Shown: positions 1,805 through 4,165 of the stretch, in pieces
How the letters are laid out: every line of letters starts with the position of its first letter
Position numbering within the stretch: the first letter of the stretch is position 1
Assembly: GCA_044360195.1 (NCBI GenBank)
Contig: JBIKKT010000005.1
Span: 5,744-69,743, forward strand
DNA: 64,000 bases
DNA from: Bdellovibrionota bacterium
GTDB taxonomy: Bacteria > Bdellovibrionota_C > UBA2361 > OMII01
Direction: 5' to 3'
Made by a program: the position numbers and the translations under genes
Notes under the pieces: model-generated
Seen by the model: the letters and a program-made list of their open reading frames with translations, nothing else
Database searches by the model: none
What the model was told of the DNA's origin: nothing

Positions 1805-4165
1805 TTAGCGATCTTTAAGATGTCGCTCATACGCTGCAATAACATCTGGATCCTTCTCGTCTGGATACAACTCGAGGGCACGTTTTCGAACGCCCACATC
1901 TTCAGACCGACCCAACACCTCGATCGCTCCAATCTTAACCTTTGGCCCCCCACGCTCAAGCATCTCAAACAGCAACTCTGATTCGAGCGCTTTCCCGAAA
2001 TGATGCAGAAGCTCCGTGATAACGCGGTCCGCATGCGCCCCCAGCAAGGAACGGATTACCCCATTCCACTGATCAGACAGATCAATGCCTCCTACCGCCT
2101 TTGAGATCTCATCATCCGACAACTTAGCATCTAATACCACAGCTGCTACAAGCCGTGCCGCCTGCGCCTTGTCAATCTCACTTGCTGCACGAACAGCAGA
2201 AACGATGGATACCACCGAGGGATCGGTAGACGGCTTGGCCGCCATGATATCGAAAGCGGTTACGGCTAGCTGTGCATCATCTGTCGATAACGCCACCAGC
2301 AAAAGAACACGCGTTACTGAGGTAGAATTCCATCCCCCAAAAGCAGTCAGGTCCTTGCGCGTCGGCCCTAACACAGCACAGTTAACGAGAGCGATTCTGA
2401 CCGGAGCAGGAATAGCGACTGAGGTGTCAAGTTCTCTCAGAAAAAGAGACCGCGGGCCAGCAACTACTTGACGCGTTAGAAGCACTCCGACCATCTCGTT
2501 GGCGAGCGGCGCACTTGTCATAGAAAGCTGATTCACAAGCCAAATGAGATCTTCGTCAGGAATTCGTCTAACGTGGGGTCGTATAGCATCGAGAAAGGTG
2601 CTTGCAAGATCAGGCAGCGCAAGCCCAAGAGCAAAAAGCGATCGCTTCTCACCACCCTTGATGCTCCCGCTATCTTTGGCACCTCGGGCGACGATAGCCC
2701 TATACGGCTCACTAGAGTCGAGGTCCAGTGCCACGGCCATCGCTAACCGCACGGCTAGAGCTGGCTGCTCTGCATAGAGTTCTGAAAGCATCTGAACGCG
2801 GGGCTCGGCTGGAACCAAGGGGTCTATGATACGCATCAGGCGCTCAAAAACGACCCCTGATGGAATAGTTCCCTGCAGTTTACGCTTCCAGATGTTCACT
2901 TGCTCTGCGCTTAACGGAAGACCCATACGCTGCGAACGTGAGAGGATCCCTTCAACTATAAAATCTCTCTCCACAGGTTCAGTAACAGCGCGCAACCTCC
3001 GGAGTAATACGTCGTGAGCTAGCGGATCTTCCGAAGCAAATATCTTACGTAGCTGGTCCTTCTGCTCATCCCATCCAGCGCCTACGCTAACGTCAAGAGT
3101 CACATCCTCTGGCACATCCTCAAGAGCCATCTGTCGGTTAGCCTGAGCTGTAACCGAATTAAACACTGCTCGACCGATGAACAGAACTGCAAGTGCGCAC
3201 ACTCCGGCAGCCACGAGTGTGCGCCGCGAACGTAGAGCCATGCGCATCCAGACCGACTTTGACACTCGGGGATCACGTTCTTCCCCTAGAACCGAAGAGA
3301 GCTTGATCTGCGTCAAGCCATCACGCTGCTCACGCTGCAGCATCTTCTCTTGCTCGACGAGCACTGGTGCAAGCTGTGCTGTCAGCTGGTGATCTTTAAA
3401 AACCCTAAGGCGCTCCAATAAAACACCCGCTGAAATCGGCAAATCATCGCGCTCAGCTACAAGCAAAGGCGTAATCAGCTCGTCGACCCACGCTGGACAC
3501 CCGGAGCTAAAGGAAGAAACAGGAGGAACAATACCCTGATCAACCGATGGGTAAACGCCTGCGAACAGGCGGTACCCGAGCACTAGCAAAGCATACACGT
3601 CATCTACTGCTGTTGGAGGAGCACTATCCACCCTACCCTGTTGGTACACCGCGTATTCGCTACGCTCTGATTCCGTAAGCTCACCACTCGAGCGCACTGT
3701 CGGAGCTACTCCAATAAATCGAACAGTGCCATTTCGATTAATAAAAAAAGACTCACTACAGATCGTTCCAATCACCAGCCCAACATCATGGATGCGTGCC
3801 ACAGCTCGAAGGCTCATGAGGTAGCGGCGCTCTCGCTCCCTCATATCCGCAGGCTCAGCTGTGATCTTCACTCCATCGAGATTGGACAGTGCAATAAAAC
3901 CAACCCCGTGCGCATCGACTCCGAATGAACGAATATCTGAGCCACCAATCTTGTCGCGAAATTGCTCTAACCTCTGGGAGAACCCTGCGGCTTCAGCCGG
4001 TGCAAGGGACTCTCTCGTAACCCACAGGCCCACACTTACGCGATTAGTCCTATCTAATGCTTTAAAGAGGCGTGCCCCCGGAAGGTGCCCACACTGATAT
4101 TCGAGCAGGAAGTATTCACTGACCGCACCCGGTAACCTTAATAGAACTCCACGTTCTTCAGACAT
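1805..4165 (-). CDS. membrane pseudokinase: degenerate Hanks-type kinase-like domain, one TM helix, and a large HEAT/ARM-repeat domain
   Basis: N-terminal region aligns to the Ser/Thr kinase fold (IHDVGLVIGTICSESFF, RFIGVA, DVYALLVLGYRLFAG). It lacks the VAIK lysine, the HRD catalytic aspartate and the DFG aspartate. TM segment TLVAAGVCALAVLFIGRAVF. C-terminal HEAT-like repeats (KIGAIEVLGRSEDVGVRKRALE). Confidence 0.6.
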   Translation of the reverse strand: MSEERGVLLRLPGAVSEYFLLEYQCGHLPGARLFKALDRTNRVSVGLWVTRESLAPAEAAGFSQRLEQFRDKIGGSDIRSFGVDAHGVGFIALSNLDGVKITAEPADMRERERRYLMSLRAVARIHDVGLVIGTICSESFFINRNGTVRFIGVAPTVRSSGELTESERSEYAVYQQGRVDSAPPTAVDDVYALLVLGYRLFAGVYPSVDQGIVPPVSSFSSGCPAWVDELITPLLVAERDDLPISAGVLLERLRVFKDHQLTAQLAPVLVEQEKMLQREQRDGLTQIKLSSVLGEERDPRVSKSVWMRMALRSRRTLVAAGVCALAVLFIGRAVFNSVTAQANRQMALEDVPEDVTLDVSVGAGWDEQKDQLRKIFASEDPLAHDVLLRRLRAVTEPVERDFIVEGILSRSQRMGLPLSAEQVNIWKRKLQGTIPSGVVFERLMRIIDPLVPAEPRVQMLSELYAEQPALAVRLAMAVALDLDSSEPYRAIVARGAKDSGSIKGGEKRSLFALGLALPDLASTFLDAIRPHVRRIPDEDLIWLVNQLSMTSAPLANEMVGVLLTRQVVAGPRSLFLRELDTSVAIPAPVRIALVNCAVLGPTRKDLTAFGGWNSTSVTRVLLLVALSTDDAQLAVTAFDIMAAKPSTDPSVVSIVSAVRAASEIDKAQAARLVAAVVLDAKLSDDEISKAVGGIDLSDQWNGVIRSLLGAHADRVITELLHHFGKALESELLFEMLERGGPKVKIGAIEVLGRSEDVGVRKRALELYPDEKDPDVIAAYERHLKDR

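What the first reader, a model, noticed from the sequence alone, without database searches (positions are those of the whole stretch)
1805..4165. Membrane pseudokinase with a C-terminal HEAT-repeat domain co-operonic with the FlhA-like gene
The N-terminal 300 aa follow the Hanks kinase fold. It has substitutions at the ATP-binding lysine (VAIK becomes SVGLW), the catalytic loop (HRDLKPxN becomes IHDVGLVIGT) and DFG (becomes RFIGVA), so it is predicted to be catalytically dead. A single TM helix and about 450 aa of HEAT/ARM-like repeats follow. Its stop is 4 bp from the TlpA-like start and its start is 25 bp from the flhA-like stop. A dead kinase scaffold next to an active STK/FHA/PP2C set suggests an allosteric or docking role in controlling the secretion machine.
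Basis: seen in the sequence. Interest (0 to 1): 0.6.

Follow-up and report, generated by a model that had tools for sequence, protein, structure and literature searches.

The report
Membrane pseudokinase locked to SctV gate
This gene encodes a catalytically dead, membrane-anchored relative of bacterial Ser/Thr kinases carrying a large helical-repeat domain on the far side of the membrane. It belongs to an undescribed family that always sits directly after a type III secretion gate gene (SctV/FlhA-like) inside Tad-pilus operons of uncultured Bdellovibrio-like bacteria, so it is probably a scaffold or regulatory subunit of a hybrid pilus-secretion machine.

Summary
Window 1805-4165 (minus strand) is a 786-aa ORF with three parts: an N-terminal Hanks-kinase fold (residues ~7-270), one transmembrane helix (316-338) and a ~420-aa all-helical repeat domain.

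The single sequence hits nothing in Pfam or PDB. A 58-member family profile matches StkP and PknB at E~1e-29, and a deep-alignment AlphaFold model (pLDDT 89.8) matches PknB by Foldseek.

The catalytic residues are gone: beta3 Lys is Trp, alphaC Glu is Arg, HRD Asp is Thr, catalytic-loop Asn is Ser, and the DFG Asp and Gly-rich loop are missing.

The family is large (210 cluster representatives at E<=1e-30), under purifying selection, and known only from metagenomes and MAGs.

In 11 of 11 loci examined it directly follows TadB-TadC-SctV. In 9 of 11 a CxxS thioredoxin-fold lipoprotein comes next. In one distant locus a full T3SS core (SctJ/O/Q/R/S/U) follows instead.

Best reading: a non-catalytic, bitopic inner-membrane adaptor that links the operon's STK/PP2C/FHA module and the envelope to an SctV gate coupled to a Kil-like Tad pilus. 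The mechanism is inferred, not shown. It is a new variant of a known kind (membrane pseudokinases such as EssB/YukC and MviN).

The parts
1805..4165 (-). Whole gene: 786-aa bitopic membrane pseudokinase with a helical-repeat domain (stop codon at 1805-1807)
   Evidence: ORF list and translation. Full-length homologues of 760-880 aa number 210 cluster representatives at E<=1e-30. dN/dS is 0.145 against L004.
3356..4147 (-). Cytoplasmic pseudokinase domain, residues ~7-270. W48 replaces the beta3 Lys and R65 the alphaC Glu. I132-G-T134 replaces HRD and S139 the catalytic-loop Asn. The DFG Asp is missing, and there is no Gly-rich loop or APE Glu.
   Evidence: Family profile against PDB gives StkP 1.9e-29 and PknB 6.5e-29. 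The AF2 model has pLDDT ~95 here and its best Foldseek match is PknB at 7.5e-8, with TM 0.60-0.68 across the top kinase hits. hhalign against the operon STK gives 98.8%.
3221..3355 (-). Juxtamembrane linker, residues 271-315, predicted disordered and poorly conserved
   Evidence: pLDDT is below 50 for residues 272-315. Identity to L005 is 23% for linker plus TM, against 50% for the N-domain.
3152..3220 (-). Single transmembrane helix, residues 316-338 (the model's helix continues to 349). Orientation is N-in, C-out.
   Evidence: Kyte-Doolittle peak of 2.34 at residues 317-335, preceded by RSRR. A TM is present in 116 of 116 members. Mean K+R count is 3.5 on the N-terminal flank and 1.8 on the C-terminal flank.
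1808..3073 (-). Predicted periplasmic alpha-solenoid, residues 365-786, about 24 helices. It opens with the conserved S-[ED]-D-P-x-A-H motif. Only the last two repeats (~718-778) are HEAT-like at sequence level.
   Evidence: pLDDT ~96, all helical. HEAT_2 hits 47 of 58 members. The C-domain profile hits designed ARM/alphaRep proteins at 3.8e-6, in the last ~60 residues only. Foldseek gives weak hits to AP-3, importin-alpha and beta-catenin.
4191..6299 (-). Upstream partner gene: full-length FHIPEP protein (SctV/FlhA family), 702 aa
   Evidence: Pfam FHIPEP 2e-178, covering positions 2-655 of 657. NCBIfam hrcV scores 578.9 bits and FlhA 524.2, both below their cut-offs. The best PDB match is YscV 7alw at 380 bits, against FlhA at 320. 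It lies directly upstream of the family in 11 of 11 loci.
1267..1800 (-). Downstream partner gene: thioredoxin-fold lipoprotein with a lipobox Cys and an invariant W-C-x-x-S active site
   Evidence: Pfam Thioredoxin_8 4.3e-8 and AhpC-TSA 1.1e-7. The alignment of 7 orthologues shows invariant C27 (lipobox), C74 and S77. It lies directly downstream in 9 of 11 loci.
6321..12508 (-). Tad/Flp pilus genes of the same operon: TadC (6321-7241), TadB (7249-8232), CpaF/TadA ATPase (8236-9786), CpaB/RcpC (9924-10775), Flp pilin (10886-11044) and TadZ/CpaE-like ATPase (11264-12508)
   Evidence: Pfam T2SSF twice, T2SSE, RcpC and AAA_31. The Flp translation contains G-ASLVEY (Flp_Fap).
12519..16366 (-). Ser/Thr phospho-signalling set at the head of the operon: active Hanks kinase with a C-terminal TM (12519-13994), FHA protein (14027-15136) and PP2C phosphatase with a C-terminal TM (15152-16366)
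   Evidence: Pkinase 1.8e-54, FHA 3.7e-7 and PP2C 1.2e-17. The VAVK, HRDMKPEN and DFG motifs and the hydrophobic C-termini are visible in the translations.

Best explanation
The protein is a non-catalytic, bitopic inner-membrane adaptor dedicated to an SctV (FHIPEP) export gate that is genetically welded to a Kil-like Tad/Flp pilus system.

Shown: the anatomy.
- A kinase fold that has lost the beta3 Lys, alphaC Glu, HRD Asp, catalytic-loop Asn, DFG Asp and Gly-rich loop.
- One TM helix.
- A ~420-aa alpha-solenoid.
- A fixed gene order TadB-TadC-SctV-pseudokinase, usually followed by a CxxS thioredoxin-fold lipoprotein.
- A membrane-tethered active Hanks kinase, a PP2C and an FHA protein at the head of the same operon.

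Inferred: the mechanism.
- The cytoplasmic pseudokinase domain works as a docking or allosteric partner. The operon's own STK has no extracytoplasmic sensor domain, so the pseudokinase could pair with it (as PknB-type kinases and pseudokinase/kinase pairs do) and/or be phosphorylated and recruit the FHA protein. It would sit next to the cytoplasmic ring of SctV.
- The periplasmic solenoid binds envelope partners. Candidates are the CxxS lipoprotein and the periplasmic parts of the Tad or T3SS-like machine.
- Assembly or activity of the SctV gate is thereby coupled to the state of the pilus and envelope.
For: Kinase descent with dead catalytic motifs. W replaces the beta3 Lys in 108 of 116 members. 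S or T replaces the catalytic Asn in 116 of 116. No Asp occurs at the DFG position. The window protein also has T134 where 104 of 116 members keep Asp.

Folded and selected, not decaying: 210 cluster representatives at E<=1e-30, nearly all 760-880 aa. dN/dS is 0.145. Structural kinase residues H126 and D189 are invariant.

Topology: a TM in 116 of 116 members, with K/R bias on the N-terminal side.

Functional linkage: the family member directly follows TadC-FHIPEP in 11 of 11 independent loci, spanning 100% to ~20% identity. A Pkinase-positive STK lies upstream in every locus that reaches far enough and was Pfam-annotated.

Secretion-system identity: in L008 the pseudokinase is followed by FHA/YscD-like proteins, SctJ, FliJ/SctO, SctQ, SctR, SctS and SctU.

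Precedents: EssB/YukC is a bitopic membrane pseudokinase that scaffolds the T7SSb (PMC12599244, PMC9600267). In M. tuberculosis the MviN pseudokinase is part of a phosphorylated pseudokinase complex that controls cell-wall synthesis (Gee et al. 2012, reference 24 of PMC12599244); that PknB is the kinase and FhaA the recruited FHA partner is my own recollection of that work. In Myxococcus the Kil Tad-like pilus recruits a needleless T3SS* (PMC12075869).
Against: - No interaction, phosphorylation or localisation data exist. Every mechanistic step is inference from anatomy, synteny and analogy.
- The periplasmic location of the solenoid rests on one TM helix and the positive-inside rule only.
- 89% of the wider family keep an Asp in the catalytic loop ('CGD'), so some ligand binding or non-canonical chemistry in the family cannot be excluded. 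The window protein has Thr there.
- In the window's lineage no other T3SS gene is visible in the 64 kb. What SctV gates there is unknown.
- The juxtamembrane linker has no conserved Thr that would mark an FHA-binding phosphosite.
Confidence: 0.5

Rival explanations
1. It is a purely structural ring or anchor subunit of the SctV gate, a functional stand-in for SctD-type bitopic ring proteins, with no link to Ser/Thr signalling. The dead kinase fold is just a cytoplasmic oligomerisation module and the solenoid is a periplasmic spacer towards the Tad/CpaB layer.
For: It has the same N-in / single TM / C-out topology as SctD-type proteins. It is always adjacent to SctV (11 of 11 loci). In the window lineage no SctD/SctJ is visible nearby. 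EssB/YukC acts mainly as a structural hub (PMC12599244).
Against: In L008 the pseudokinase coexists with FHA/YscD-like proteins and SctJ, so it does not simply replace them. An active STK, a PP2C and an FHA protein are conserved in the same operon.
Confidence: 0.2
2. It is an envelope-side factor working with the CxxS thioredoxin-fold lipoprotein, for example as a chaperone or redox-linked holder for pilins or exported substrates. The pseudokinase domain would be an inert cytoplasmic remnant.
For: The largest and best-modelled part of the protein is the predicted periplasmic solenoid. The lipoprotein follows in 9 of 11 loci and has an invariant W-C-x-x-S site.
Against: The pseudokinase domain is the more conserved half: 50% identity against 38% to L005. 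It keeps invariant structural residues, so it is under its own constraint. No Cys is conserved across the family in the solenoid; position 625 is Cys in 53% of members and Ala in the window protein. Two loci lack the lipoprotein.
Confidence: 0.12
3. It is an atypical but active enzyme: a non-canonical kinase, or an AMPylase/glutamylase in the manner of SelO or SidJ that uses a remodelled active site.
For: The wider family keeps an Asp in the catalytic loop in 104 of 116 members and has a conserved Arg on alphaC. Several 'pseudokinases' have turned out to be enzymes (PMC12599244).
Against: The window protein lacks even that Asp (T134), plus the beta3 Lys, catalytic Asn, DFG Asp and Gly-rich loop. 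A bulky Trp sits at the ATP-anchoring position in 93% of members. No alternative conserved acidic or basic cluster was seen in the N-domain.
Confidence: 0.05
4. The adjacency to SctV is historical accident, and the protein acts in an unrelated pathway.
For: No direct functional data exist.
Against: The gene order is kept in 11 of 11 loci while the protein itself diverges to ~20% identity and the downstream neighbourhood changes (tig-clpPX-lon, T3SS genes, relA, an ABC transporter).
Confidence: 0.03

Closest known systems
EssB/YukC, the membrane pseudokinase of the type VIIb secretion system (Firmicutes)
   Same: It is a bitopic membrane protein with an N-terminal cytoplasmic pseudokinase domain in which all catalytic motifs and the Gly-rich loop are degraded, a single TM and an extracytoplasmic C-terminal domain. 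It is encoded inside a secretion-system locus and acts non-catalytically as a scaffold (PMC12599244, PMC9600267, PMC3526858).
   Different: There is no detectable sequence relationship. The target has no Pfam hit of any family at E<=0.1, and no EssB/YukC structure appears in the top 50-60 PDB hits listed, which are PknB/StkP-type kinases. The extracytoplasmic domain here is a ~420-aa alpha-solenoid. The partner machine is Tad plus SctV in a diderm, not T7SSb.
MviN (MurJ) pseudokinase / FhaA / PknB complex of Mycobacterium tuberculosis
   Same: It is a membrane-bound PknB-like pseudokinase working together with an active Hanks kinase and an FHA protein, all of which have counterparts in this operon (Gee et al. 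2012, reference 24 of PMC12599244; the roles of PknB and FhaA are from my own knowledge of that work).
   Different: There the pseudokinase is fused to a 14-TM flippase and belongs to the actinobacterial ActPs3 family with a shortened activation loop. Here it is a single-pass protein with a periplasmic repeat domain. No conserved juxtamembrane Thr was seen.
GLW pseudokinase family of the bacterial STK atlas (bioRxiv 10.1101/2025.01.12.632604; PMC12599244)
   Same: It is described as proteobacterial and as lacking all three catalytic residues. [quoted passage not shown] The window protein has W48, no DFG Asp and the same topology.
   Different: GLW is defined by a G-L-W motif in place of HRD and a poly-Leu beta3 strand. 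Here HRD is replaced by I-G-T (family consensus C-G-D), and G-L-W occurs in beta3 instead. No HEAT domain or FHIPEP linkage is reported for GLW. The representative sequence MBH9021688.1 could not be obtained for a direct test.
PknB/StkP-type receptor Ser/Thr kinases
   Same: These are the closest relatives by sequence profile and by fold. They share the N-in kinase / single TM / extracytoplasmic domain layout.
   Different: Those kinases are active and carry PASTA sensor domains. This protein lacks every catalytic residue and carries an alpha-solenoid.
Myxococcus xanthus Kil (Tad-like) system plus needleless T3SS*
   Same: A Tad-type pilus with FHA-rich signalling genes works together with a T3SS-like basal body in a predator, and Kil recruits T3SS* (PMC8460266, PMC12075869). 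Here a Tad operon with STK/FHA/PP2C carries an SctV. In L008 it carries a whole T3SS core.
   Different: In Myxococcus the two systems are encoded at separate loci, and neither of the two Kil-system papers I term-searched (PMC8460266, PMC12075869) contains the word 'kinase'. Here SctV and the pseudokinase are the last genes of the Tad operon.
Threonine phosphorylation pathway of the Pseudomonas aeruginosa H1-T6SS (PpkA/PppA/Fha1)
   Same: A membrane Hanks kinase, a PP2C phosphatase and an FHA protein are encoded with a secretion machine and control its assembly post-translationally. This is cited as an analogy in PMC8460266; the details are from my own knowledge.
   Different: PpkA carries its own periplasmic domain. 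Here the active kinase is tail-anchored without one, and a separate pseudokinase carries the periplasmic domain.

Membership tests
Hanks-type (eukaryote-like) protein kinase superfamily: fold and descent | Bilobal kinase fold with detectable homology to Pkinase (PF00069) | tested here: met
   The family profile hits StkP at 1.9e-29 and PknB at 6.5e-29 over the full domain. Pkinase hits 45 of 58 family members. The AF2 model's best Foldseek match is PknB at 7.5e-8, with TM 0.60-0.68 across the top kinase hits. The window sequence alone gives no Pfam hit.
Catalytically competent Hanks kinase | beta3 (VAIK) Lys paired with alphaC Glu | tested here: not met
   W48 aligns with the PknB/STK Lys and R65 with the alphaC Glu. 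W occurs in 108 of 116 members and R in 104 of 116.
Catalytically competent Hanks kinase | HRD Asp and catalytic-loop Lys/Asn (HRDxKxxN) | tested here: not met
   The loop aligns to I132-G-T-I-C-S-E-S139. The Asp position is Thr here, though Asp in 104 of 116 relatives. The Asn position is Ser or Thr in 116 of 116.
Catalytically competent Hanks kinase | DFG Asp and Gly-rich loop | tested here: not met
   The D and F of DFG fall in a deletion relative to PknB and the operon STK ('VRF--IG'). The G-loop is 'GHLPGA' here and S-T-R-[TS]-A-[DE] in the family.
Pseudokinase (sequence definition: at least one of VAIK-Lys, HRD-Asp, DFG-Asp missing) | [quoted passage not shown] | tested here: met
   All three are missing in the window protein. 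The fold is retained. Purifying selection is shown by dN/dS 0.145. Absence of nucleotide binding itself cannot be tested here.
GLW bacterial pseudokinase family (bSTK atlas) | G-L-W motif replacing HRD | tested here: not met
   The HRD position reads I-G-T here and C/L-G-D in the family. G-L-W occurs at beta3 instead.
GLW bacterial pseudokinase family (bSTK atlas) | [quoted passage not shown] | tested here: met
   W48, no DFG Asp, and a TM at 316-338.
GLW bacterial pseudokinase family (bSTK atlas) | Sequence clustering with the family representative MBH9021688.1 | not testable with these tools
EssB/YukC T7SSb pseudokinase family | Sequence or fold match to YukC/EssB | tested here: not met
   The target has no Pfam hit of any family at E<=0.1. 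No YukC or EssB chain appears in the top hits listed from the PDB profile or Foldseek searches. The resemblance is architectural only.
HEAT/ARM repeat proteins | Tandem helix-turn-helix repeats forming an alpha-solenoid, recognisable by HEAT/ARM profiles | tested here: inconclusive
   There are about 24 helices at pLDDT ~96. HEAT_2 hits 47 of 58 relatives but scores only E 0.25 for the window protein, and only over its last ~50 residues. The profile match to designed ARM/alphaRep proteins (3.8e-6) covers the last ~60 residues. Foldseek to importin-alpha, beta-catenin and AP-3 gives E 4e-3 to 1e-2 with TM below 0.3, from the first, low-confidence model.
FHIPEP / SctV-FlhA (neighbouring gene) | Full-length match to FHIPEP with TM and cytoplasmic domains | tested here: met
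   PF00771 at 2e-178, covering 2-655 of 657. It falls below the equivalog cut-offs of both hrcV (579 against 692 bits) and FlhA (524 against 772), so it belongs to a separate clade.
TlpA/ResA-type thiol:disulfide oxidoreductase (neighbouring gene) | W-C-x-x-C active site | tested here: not met
   The site is an invariant W-C-x-x-S in 7 of 7 orthologues. TlpA scores 28 bits against a cut-off of 230.

The most novel reading that the evidence does not exclude
The family marks an unrecognised hybrid envelope machine in uncultured Bdellovibrionota/Oligoflexia-like bacteria. In it a type III export gate (SctV, with or without the rest of a needleless T3SS) is built into a Kil-like Tad pilus operon. 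The pseudokinase/solenoid protein would be the dedicated coupling subunit. It would physically join SctV to the pilus platform and place gate opening under Ser/Thr phospho-control and periplasmic sensing. This would be a hard-wired version of the Kil-T3SS* partnership that Myxococcus achieves with two separate loci.
Probability: 0.2. Interest if true: 0.85.

Novelty: new variant of a known kind. Interest (0 to 1): 0.62.

Why it matters
Membrane pseudokinases are known as secretion-system scaffolds in only a few cases (EssB/YukC in T7SSb), and recent reviews explicitly predict more of them.

This family is large, conserved and invisible to standard annotation. The window member has no Pfam hit and is labelled 'hypothetical protein'.

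It gives a specific, testable handle on two open questions:
- How Tad-type 'killing' pili and T3SS-like gates are coupled in bacterial predators.
- What an SctV does when it is encoded without the rest of an injectisome.

It also provides a natural sensor-pseudokinase / sensorless-kinase pair for studying allosteric kinase control in bacteria.

Tried and rejected
Searches that gave nothing.
- Single-sequence searches found nothing. Pfam gave no hit at E<=0.1. PDB phmmer gave no hit at E<=10. NCBIfam gave only a 20-bit match to the MAD6 kinase.
- The word-indexed homologue search found only 6 close relatives. Repeating it with the 58-sequence profile added only generic kinases.
- The first AlphaFold model, on 6 sequences, was unreliable in the N-domain (pLDDT below 50), so its Foldseek hits were treated as weak. 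The model was redone with 116 sequences.
- The listing of cluster members gave no organism names.

Literature.
- No paper holds both 'FHIPEP' and 'pseudokinase'.
- The B. bacteriovorus Tad preprint and the Kil paper do not mention FlhA, FHIPEP, SctV or a HEAT protein.
- The Cell Reports paper that defines T3SS* is not in the library.

Readings rejected.
- The neighbour is not flagellar FlhA in a flagellar context. It is in a Tad operon, is nearer to SctV, and in L008 is followed by SctJ and SctR-type genes.
- The downstream gene is not TlpA, because its site is CxxS and it is a lipoprotein.
- The gene is not a decaying pseudogene, given dN/dS of 0.145 and full-length conservation.
- The 255-aa ORF at 1267..2034 is an artefact of taking the first ATG. 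It overlaps the target's 3' end.

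
Full report
1. What is there.

Window 1805..4165 holds a 786-aa ORF on the minus strand with an ATG start. It starts 25 nt after the TAA of a 702-aa FHIPEP gene (4191..6299). It ends 4 nt before an ATG at 1800 that opens a thioredoxin-fold gene. Metagenome gene callers preferred an upstream start with a 41-nt overlap, but the start at 1800 yields a normal lipoprotein signal peptide.

All genes from 16366 down to 1267 lie on the minus strand with short gaps:
- PP2C, FHA protein and an active Hanks kinase;
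- TadZ-like ATPase, Flp pilin, CpaB, CpaF, TadB and TadC;
- FHIPEP, the target gene and the thioredoxin-fold gene.

A good sigma-70-like site downstream of 1267 fits a separate promoter for the tig gene that follows.

2. Is the N-terminal part a kinase fold?

The window sequence alone is silent. It has no Pfam family at E<=0.1 and no PDB sequence at E<=10.

Evidence builds with depth:
- A profile of the 6 close homologues hits PknA, StkP, Tribbles, PAK and MLKL at E 0.005-0.3, always over residues ~116-230.
- hhalign of that profile against the operon's own kinase gives 87.7% probability, E 3.4e-6.
- An exhaustive HMM search of 1.84 billion cluster representatives found 495 relatives at E<=1e-3 and 210 at E<=1e-30. 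Nearly all are 760-880 aa and align end to end.
- A 58-member profile hits StkP (1.9e-29), PknB (6.5e-29) and PknA across the entire kinase domain.
- The same profile hits the operon STK at 98.8% probability, E 4.5e-17.
- Pkinase is detected in 45 of 58 members.
- AlphaFold2 with 6 sequences gave an unreliable N-domain. With 116 sequences it gave mean pLDDT 89.8, about 95 for residues 7-270.
- The best Foldseek matches of that model are PknB kinase-domain structures (E 7.5e-8). TM scores normalised to the target are 0.60-0.68 across the top kinase hits, over ~275 columns.

The fold claim is therefore confirmed. The window protein is simply the most eroded member of its family.

3. Is it dead?

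These equivalences come from the alignments to PknB, StkP and the operon STK and the column counts on 116 sequences:
- Gly-rich loop: 'GHLPGA' here, S-T-R-[TS]-A-[DE] in the family.
- beta3 VAIK Lys: W48 (W in 108 of 116; a Lys in one representative only).
- alphaC Glu: R65 (R in 104 of 116).
- HRDxKxxN: I132-G-T-I-C-S-E-S139. The family consensus is C-G-D-[IL]-[CS]-x-x-S, with Asp kept in 104 of 116 and the Asn position Ser or Thr in 116 of 116.
- DFG: the D and F fall in a deletion ('VRF--IG').

Structural kinase residues are kept. H126 (alphaE) and D189 (alphaF) are invariant.

The window subclade has gone further than the family. It lost the catalytic-loop Asp (T134). It also lost, together, the APE Glu (family P-E, here Y174-Q175) and its Arg partner (family R in 91%, here L242).

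Its HRD register ('IHDVGLVIGT') is off by seven residues, but its conclusion stands.

The gene is not decaying. dN/dS against the 68%-identical L004 is 0.145. In the 40%-identical L005 the pseudokinase domain is the best-conserved part, at 50% identity against 38% for the C-domain and 23% for linker plus TM.

4. Membrane segment and C-terminal domain.

One strongly hydrophobic segment (Kyte-Doolittle 2.34, residues 317-335) follows 'RSRR'. A comparable segment exists in 116 of 116 members. Mean K+R is 3.5 on the N-terminal flank against 1.8 on the C-terminal flank.

With a 315-residue folded N-domain and no signal peptide, the orientation is N-in, C-out (inference). This places residues 365-786 in the periplasm.

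That domain is modelled at pLDDT ~96 as about 24 helices. HEAT_2 is found in 47 of 58 relatives, with a best E of 2.8e-11. In the window protein it scores only E 0.25, and in all cases the match covers only the last ~60 residues. The rest has no sequence match to known repeats. Foldseek on the first, low-confidence model gave weak matches to AP-3, importin-alpha and beta-catenin.

'Alpha-solenoid with HEAT-like terminal repeats' is the accurate description. Conserved landmarks are S-[ED]-D-P-x-A-H just outside the membrane, D481, W612, and E770/D772/Y779.

5. Context and relatives.

Organism:
- Two genome hits are Bdellovibrionota MAGs from Lake Mendota.
- Other carriers are labelled Oligoflexia or 'Deltaproteobacteria' MAGs.
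- No cultured carrier was identified.

Gene order:
- In 11 independent loci the family member directly follows TadB-TadC-FHIPEP. The loci are the window, L005, the P0017 contig and L006-L013, and pseudokinase identity falls from 100% to ~20%.
- In 9 of the 11 loci the next gene is the thioredoxin-fold protein.
- Further downstream the neighbourhood varies: tig-clpP-clpX-lon, relA, a histidine kinase or an ABC transporter.
- A Pkinase-positive STK (and PP2C where visible) heads the operon in every Pfam-annotated locus that extends far enough.

The FHIPEP protein:
- It is full length (Pfam 2e-178).
- It scores below the equivalog cut-offs of both hrcV and FlhA.
- It is nearer to YscV than to FlhA in the PDB, 380 against 320 bits.

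The T3SS link:
- In L008 the pseudokinase is followed by two FHA/YscD-like proteins, SctJ, FliJ/SctO, an SctQ-like protein, SctR, SctS, an unassigned 239-aa protein in the SctT position, and SctU.
- Its SctV is 35% identical to the window's.
- So the FHIPEP gene is the SctV of a non-flagellar T3SS-type apparatus that in some lineages forms one supercluster with the Tad genes.
- In the window's lineage no other T3SS gene lies within the 64 kb.

6. Mechanism: inference.

The active STK of the operon is tail-anchored and has no extracytoplasmic domain, and so is the PP2C. The only protein in the operon that combines a kinase-type cytoplasmic module with a large periplasmic domain is the pseudokinase.

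The most economical model has three elements:
- The pseudokinase domain docks onto or allosterically controls the STK, and/or is its substrate and an FHA-binding platform.
- The periplasmic solenoid binds envelope partners. The co-conserved lipoprotein with an invariant W-C-x-x-S site is the obvious candidate.
- The whole protein sits beside SctV.

Precedents:
- EssB/YukC in T7SSb (PMC12599244, PMC9600267).
- The phosphorylated MviN pseudokinase complex of mycobacteria (Gee et al. 2012, cited in PMC12599244; the roles of PknB and FhaA are from my own knowledge).
- PpkA/PppA/Fha1 control of a T6SS (cited in PMC8460266).
- Kil-dependent recruitment of the needleless T3SS* in Myxococcus (PMC12075869).

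Rivals:
- A purely structural SctD-like ring subunit.
- An envelope factor working with the lipoprotein.
- A non-canonical enzyme, which is unlikely for this member.
- Accidental adjacency, which is disfavoured by the 11 of 11 synteny.

7. Comparison with known families.

By descent it is a PknB-like Hanks kinase. By definition it is a pseudokinase.

It is not EssB/YukC. The target has no Pfam hit of any family, and no EssB/YukC chain appears in the top PDB hits.

The 'GLW' pseudokinase family of the bacterial STK atlas shares three described features: a bulky Leu/Trp at the beta3 Lys position, no DFG Asp, and a TM after the kinase domain. Its name-giving feature, G-L-W in place of HRD, is not met here (I-G-T; family C-G-D). 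Its representative sequence could not be retrieved, so membership is unresolved and, on the published description, doubtful.

The literature searched gave no link to this family:
- No paper holds both 'FHIPEP' and 'pseudokinase'.
- The B. bacteriovorus Tad preprint and the Kil paper do not mention FlhA, FHIPEP, SctV or a HEAT protein.
- The Kil-pilus paper (PMC12075869) does not contain the words 'kinase' or 'HEAT'.

8. Verdict.

It is a new variant of a known kind, a membrane pseudokinase attached to a secretion machine. Its interest comes mainly from what it points to: a fixed Tad-SctV-pseudokinase module in uncultured predator-like bacteria.

Noticed in passing
window 4191-6299 (-): A full-length SctV/FlhA-family gene sits as the tenth gene of a Tad/Flp pilus operon, with no other T3SS or flagellar gene in the 64-kb window. 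It scores below the equivalog cut-offs of both hrcV and FlhA and is nearer to YscV. At least 120 relatives of 48-88% identity exist in metagenomes.
   Followed up: partly
L008 1-22646 (ENA ERZ23487587 scaffold_51): In a distant relative the Tad operon, SctV and the pseudokinase are followed directly by two FHA/YscD-like proteins, SctJ, FliJ/SctO, an SctQ-like protein, SctR, SctS, a 239-aa unassigned protein in the SctT position, and a short (248-aa) SctU. This is a single Tad-plus-T3SS supercluster. No SctN, secretin or needle gene is seen in the stretch available.
   Followed up: partly
window 1267-1800 (-): The 'TlpA-like' gene encodes a thioredoxin-fold lipoprotein (lipobox Cys). Its active site is an invariant W-C-x-x-S, not CxxC, in all 7 orthologues aligned, and an invariant F-S-G-N...D-E-A motif is also present. 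A monothiol site suggests stable mixed-disulfide or non-redox binding rather than TlpA-type reduction.
   Followed up: partly
window 12519-13994 (-) and 15152-16366 (-): Both the active Hanks kinase and the PP2C phosphatase end in a hydrophobic C-terminal segment (tail anchors) after long low-complexity linkers. Neither has an extracytoplasmic domain (read from the translations).
   Followed up: no
window 1267-2034 (-): The mechanical ORF list gives a 255-aa ORF that overlaps the last 230 nt of the target gene. This is an artefact of taking the first ATG. The real start is at 1800, or at 1845 according to metagenome gene callers.
   Followed up: yes
window 6321-12508 (-): The Tad operon has no secretin (RcpA/CpaC) and no prepilin peptidase (TadV/CpaA) gene. 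This holds in all related loci seen, so these must be encoded elsewhere or be absent.
   Followed up: no
window 17826-19031 (-): A 401-aa protein with a C-terminal SpoIIE/PP2C-type phosphatase domain (9.6e-44) and an unassigned N-terminal half lies just upstream of the operon. It is a second Ser/Thr phosphatase near the locus.
   Followed up: no
window 28088-40139: This is a polysaccharide-type cluster. It holds several GT4 and GT2 glycosyltransferases and, at 28088-29491, a multi-TM protein that looks like an initiating sugar transferase (read from its translation only, not Pfam-tested). Two large ORFs have no Pfam hit: 33218-34297 and the 707-aa ORF at 35797-37920.
   Followed up: no
window 45401-48000: GC drops locally to 0.46 and GC skew turns positive, the only such spot in the window. 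It lies around an AAA_14/DUF4143 ATPase gene (45401-46648) and a 185-aa ORF without Pfam hits, and may be an inserted element.
   Followed up: no
window 38032-38961 (+) and 51763-53346 (-): Two further genes were noted: a cNMP-binding protein fused to DUF1003, and an ATP-dependent DNA ligase with N, M and C domains.
   Followed up: no
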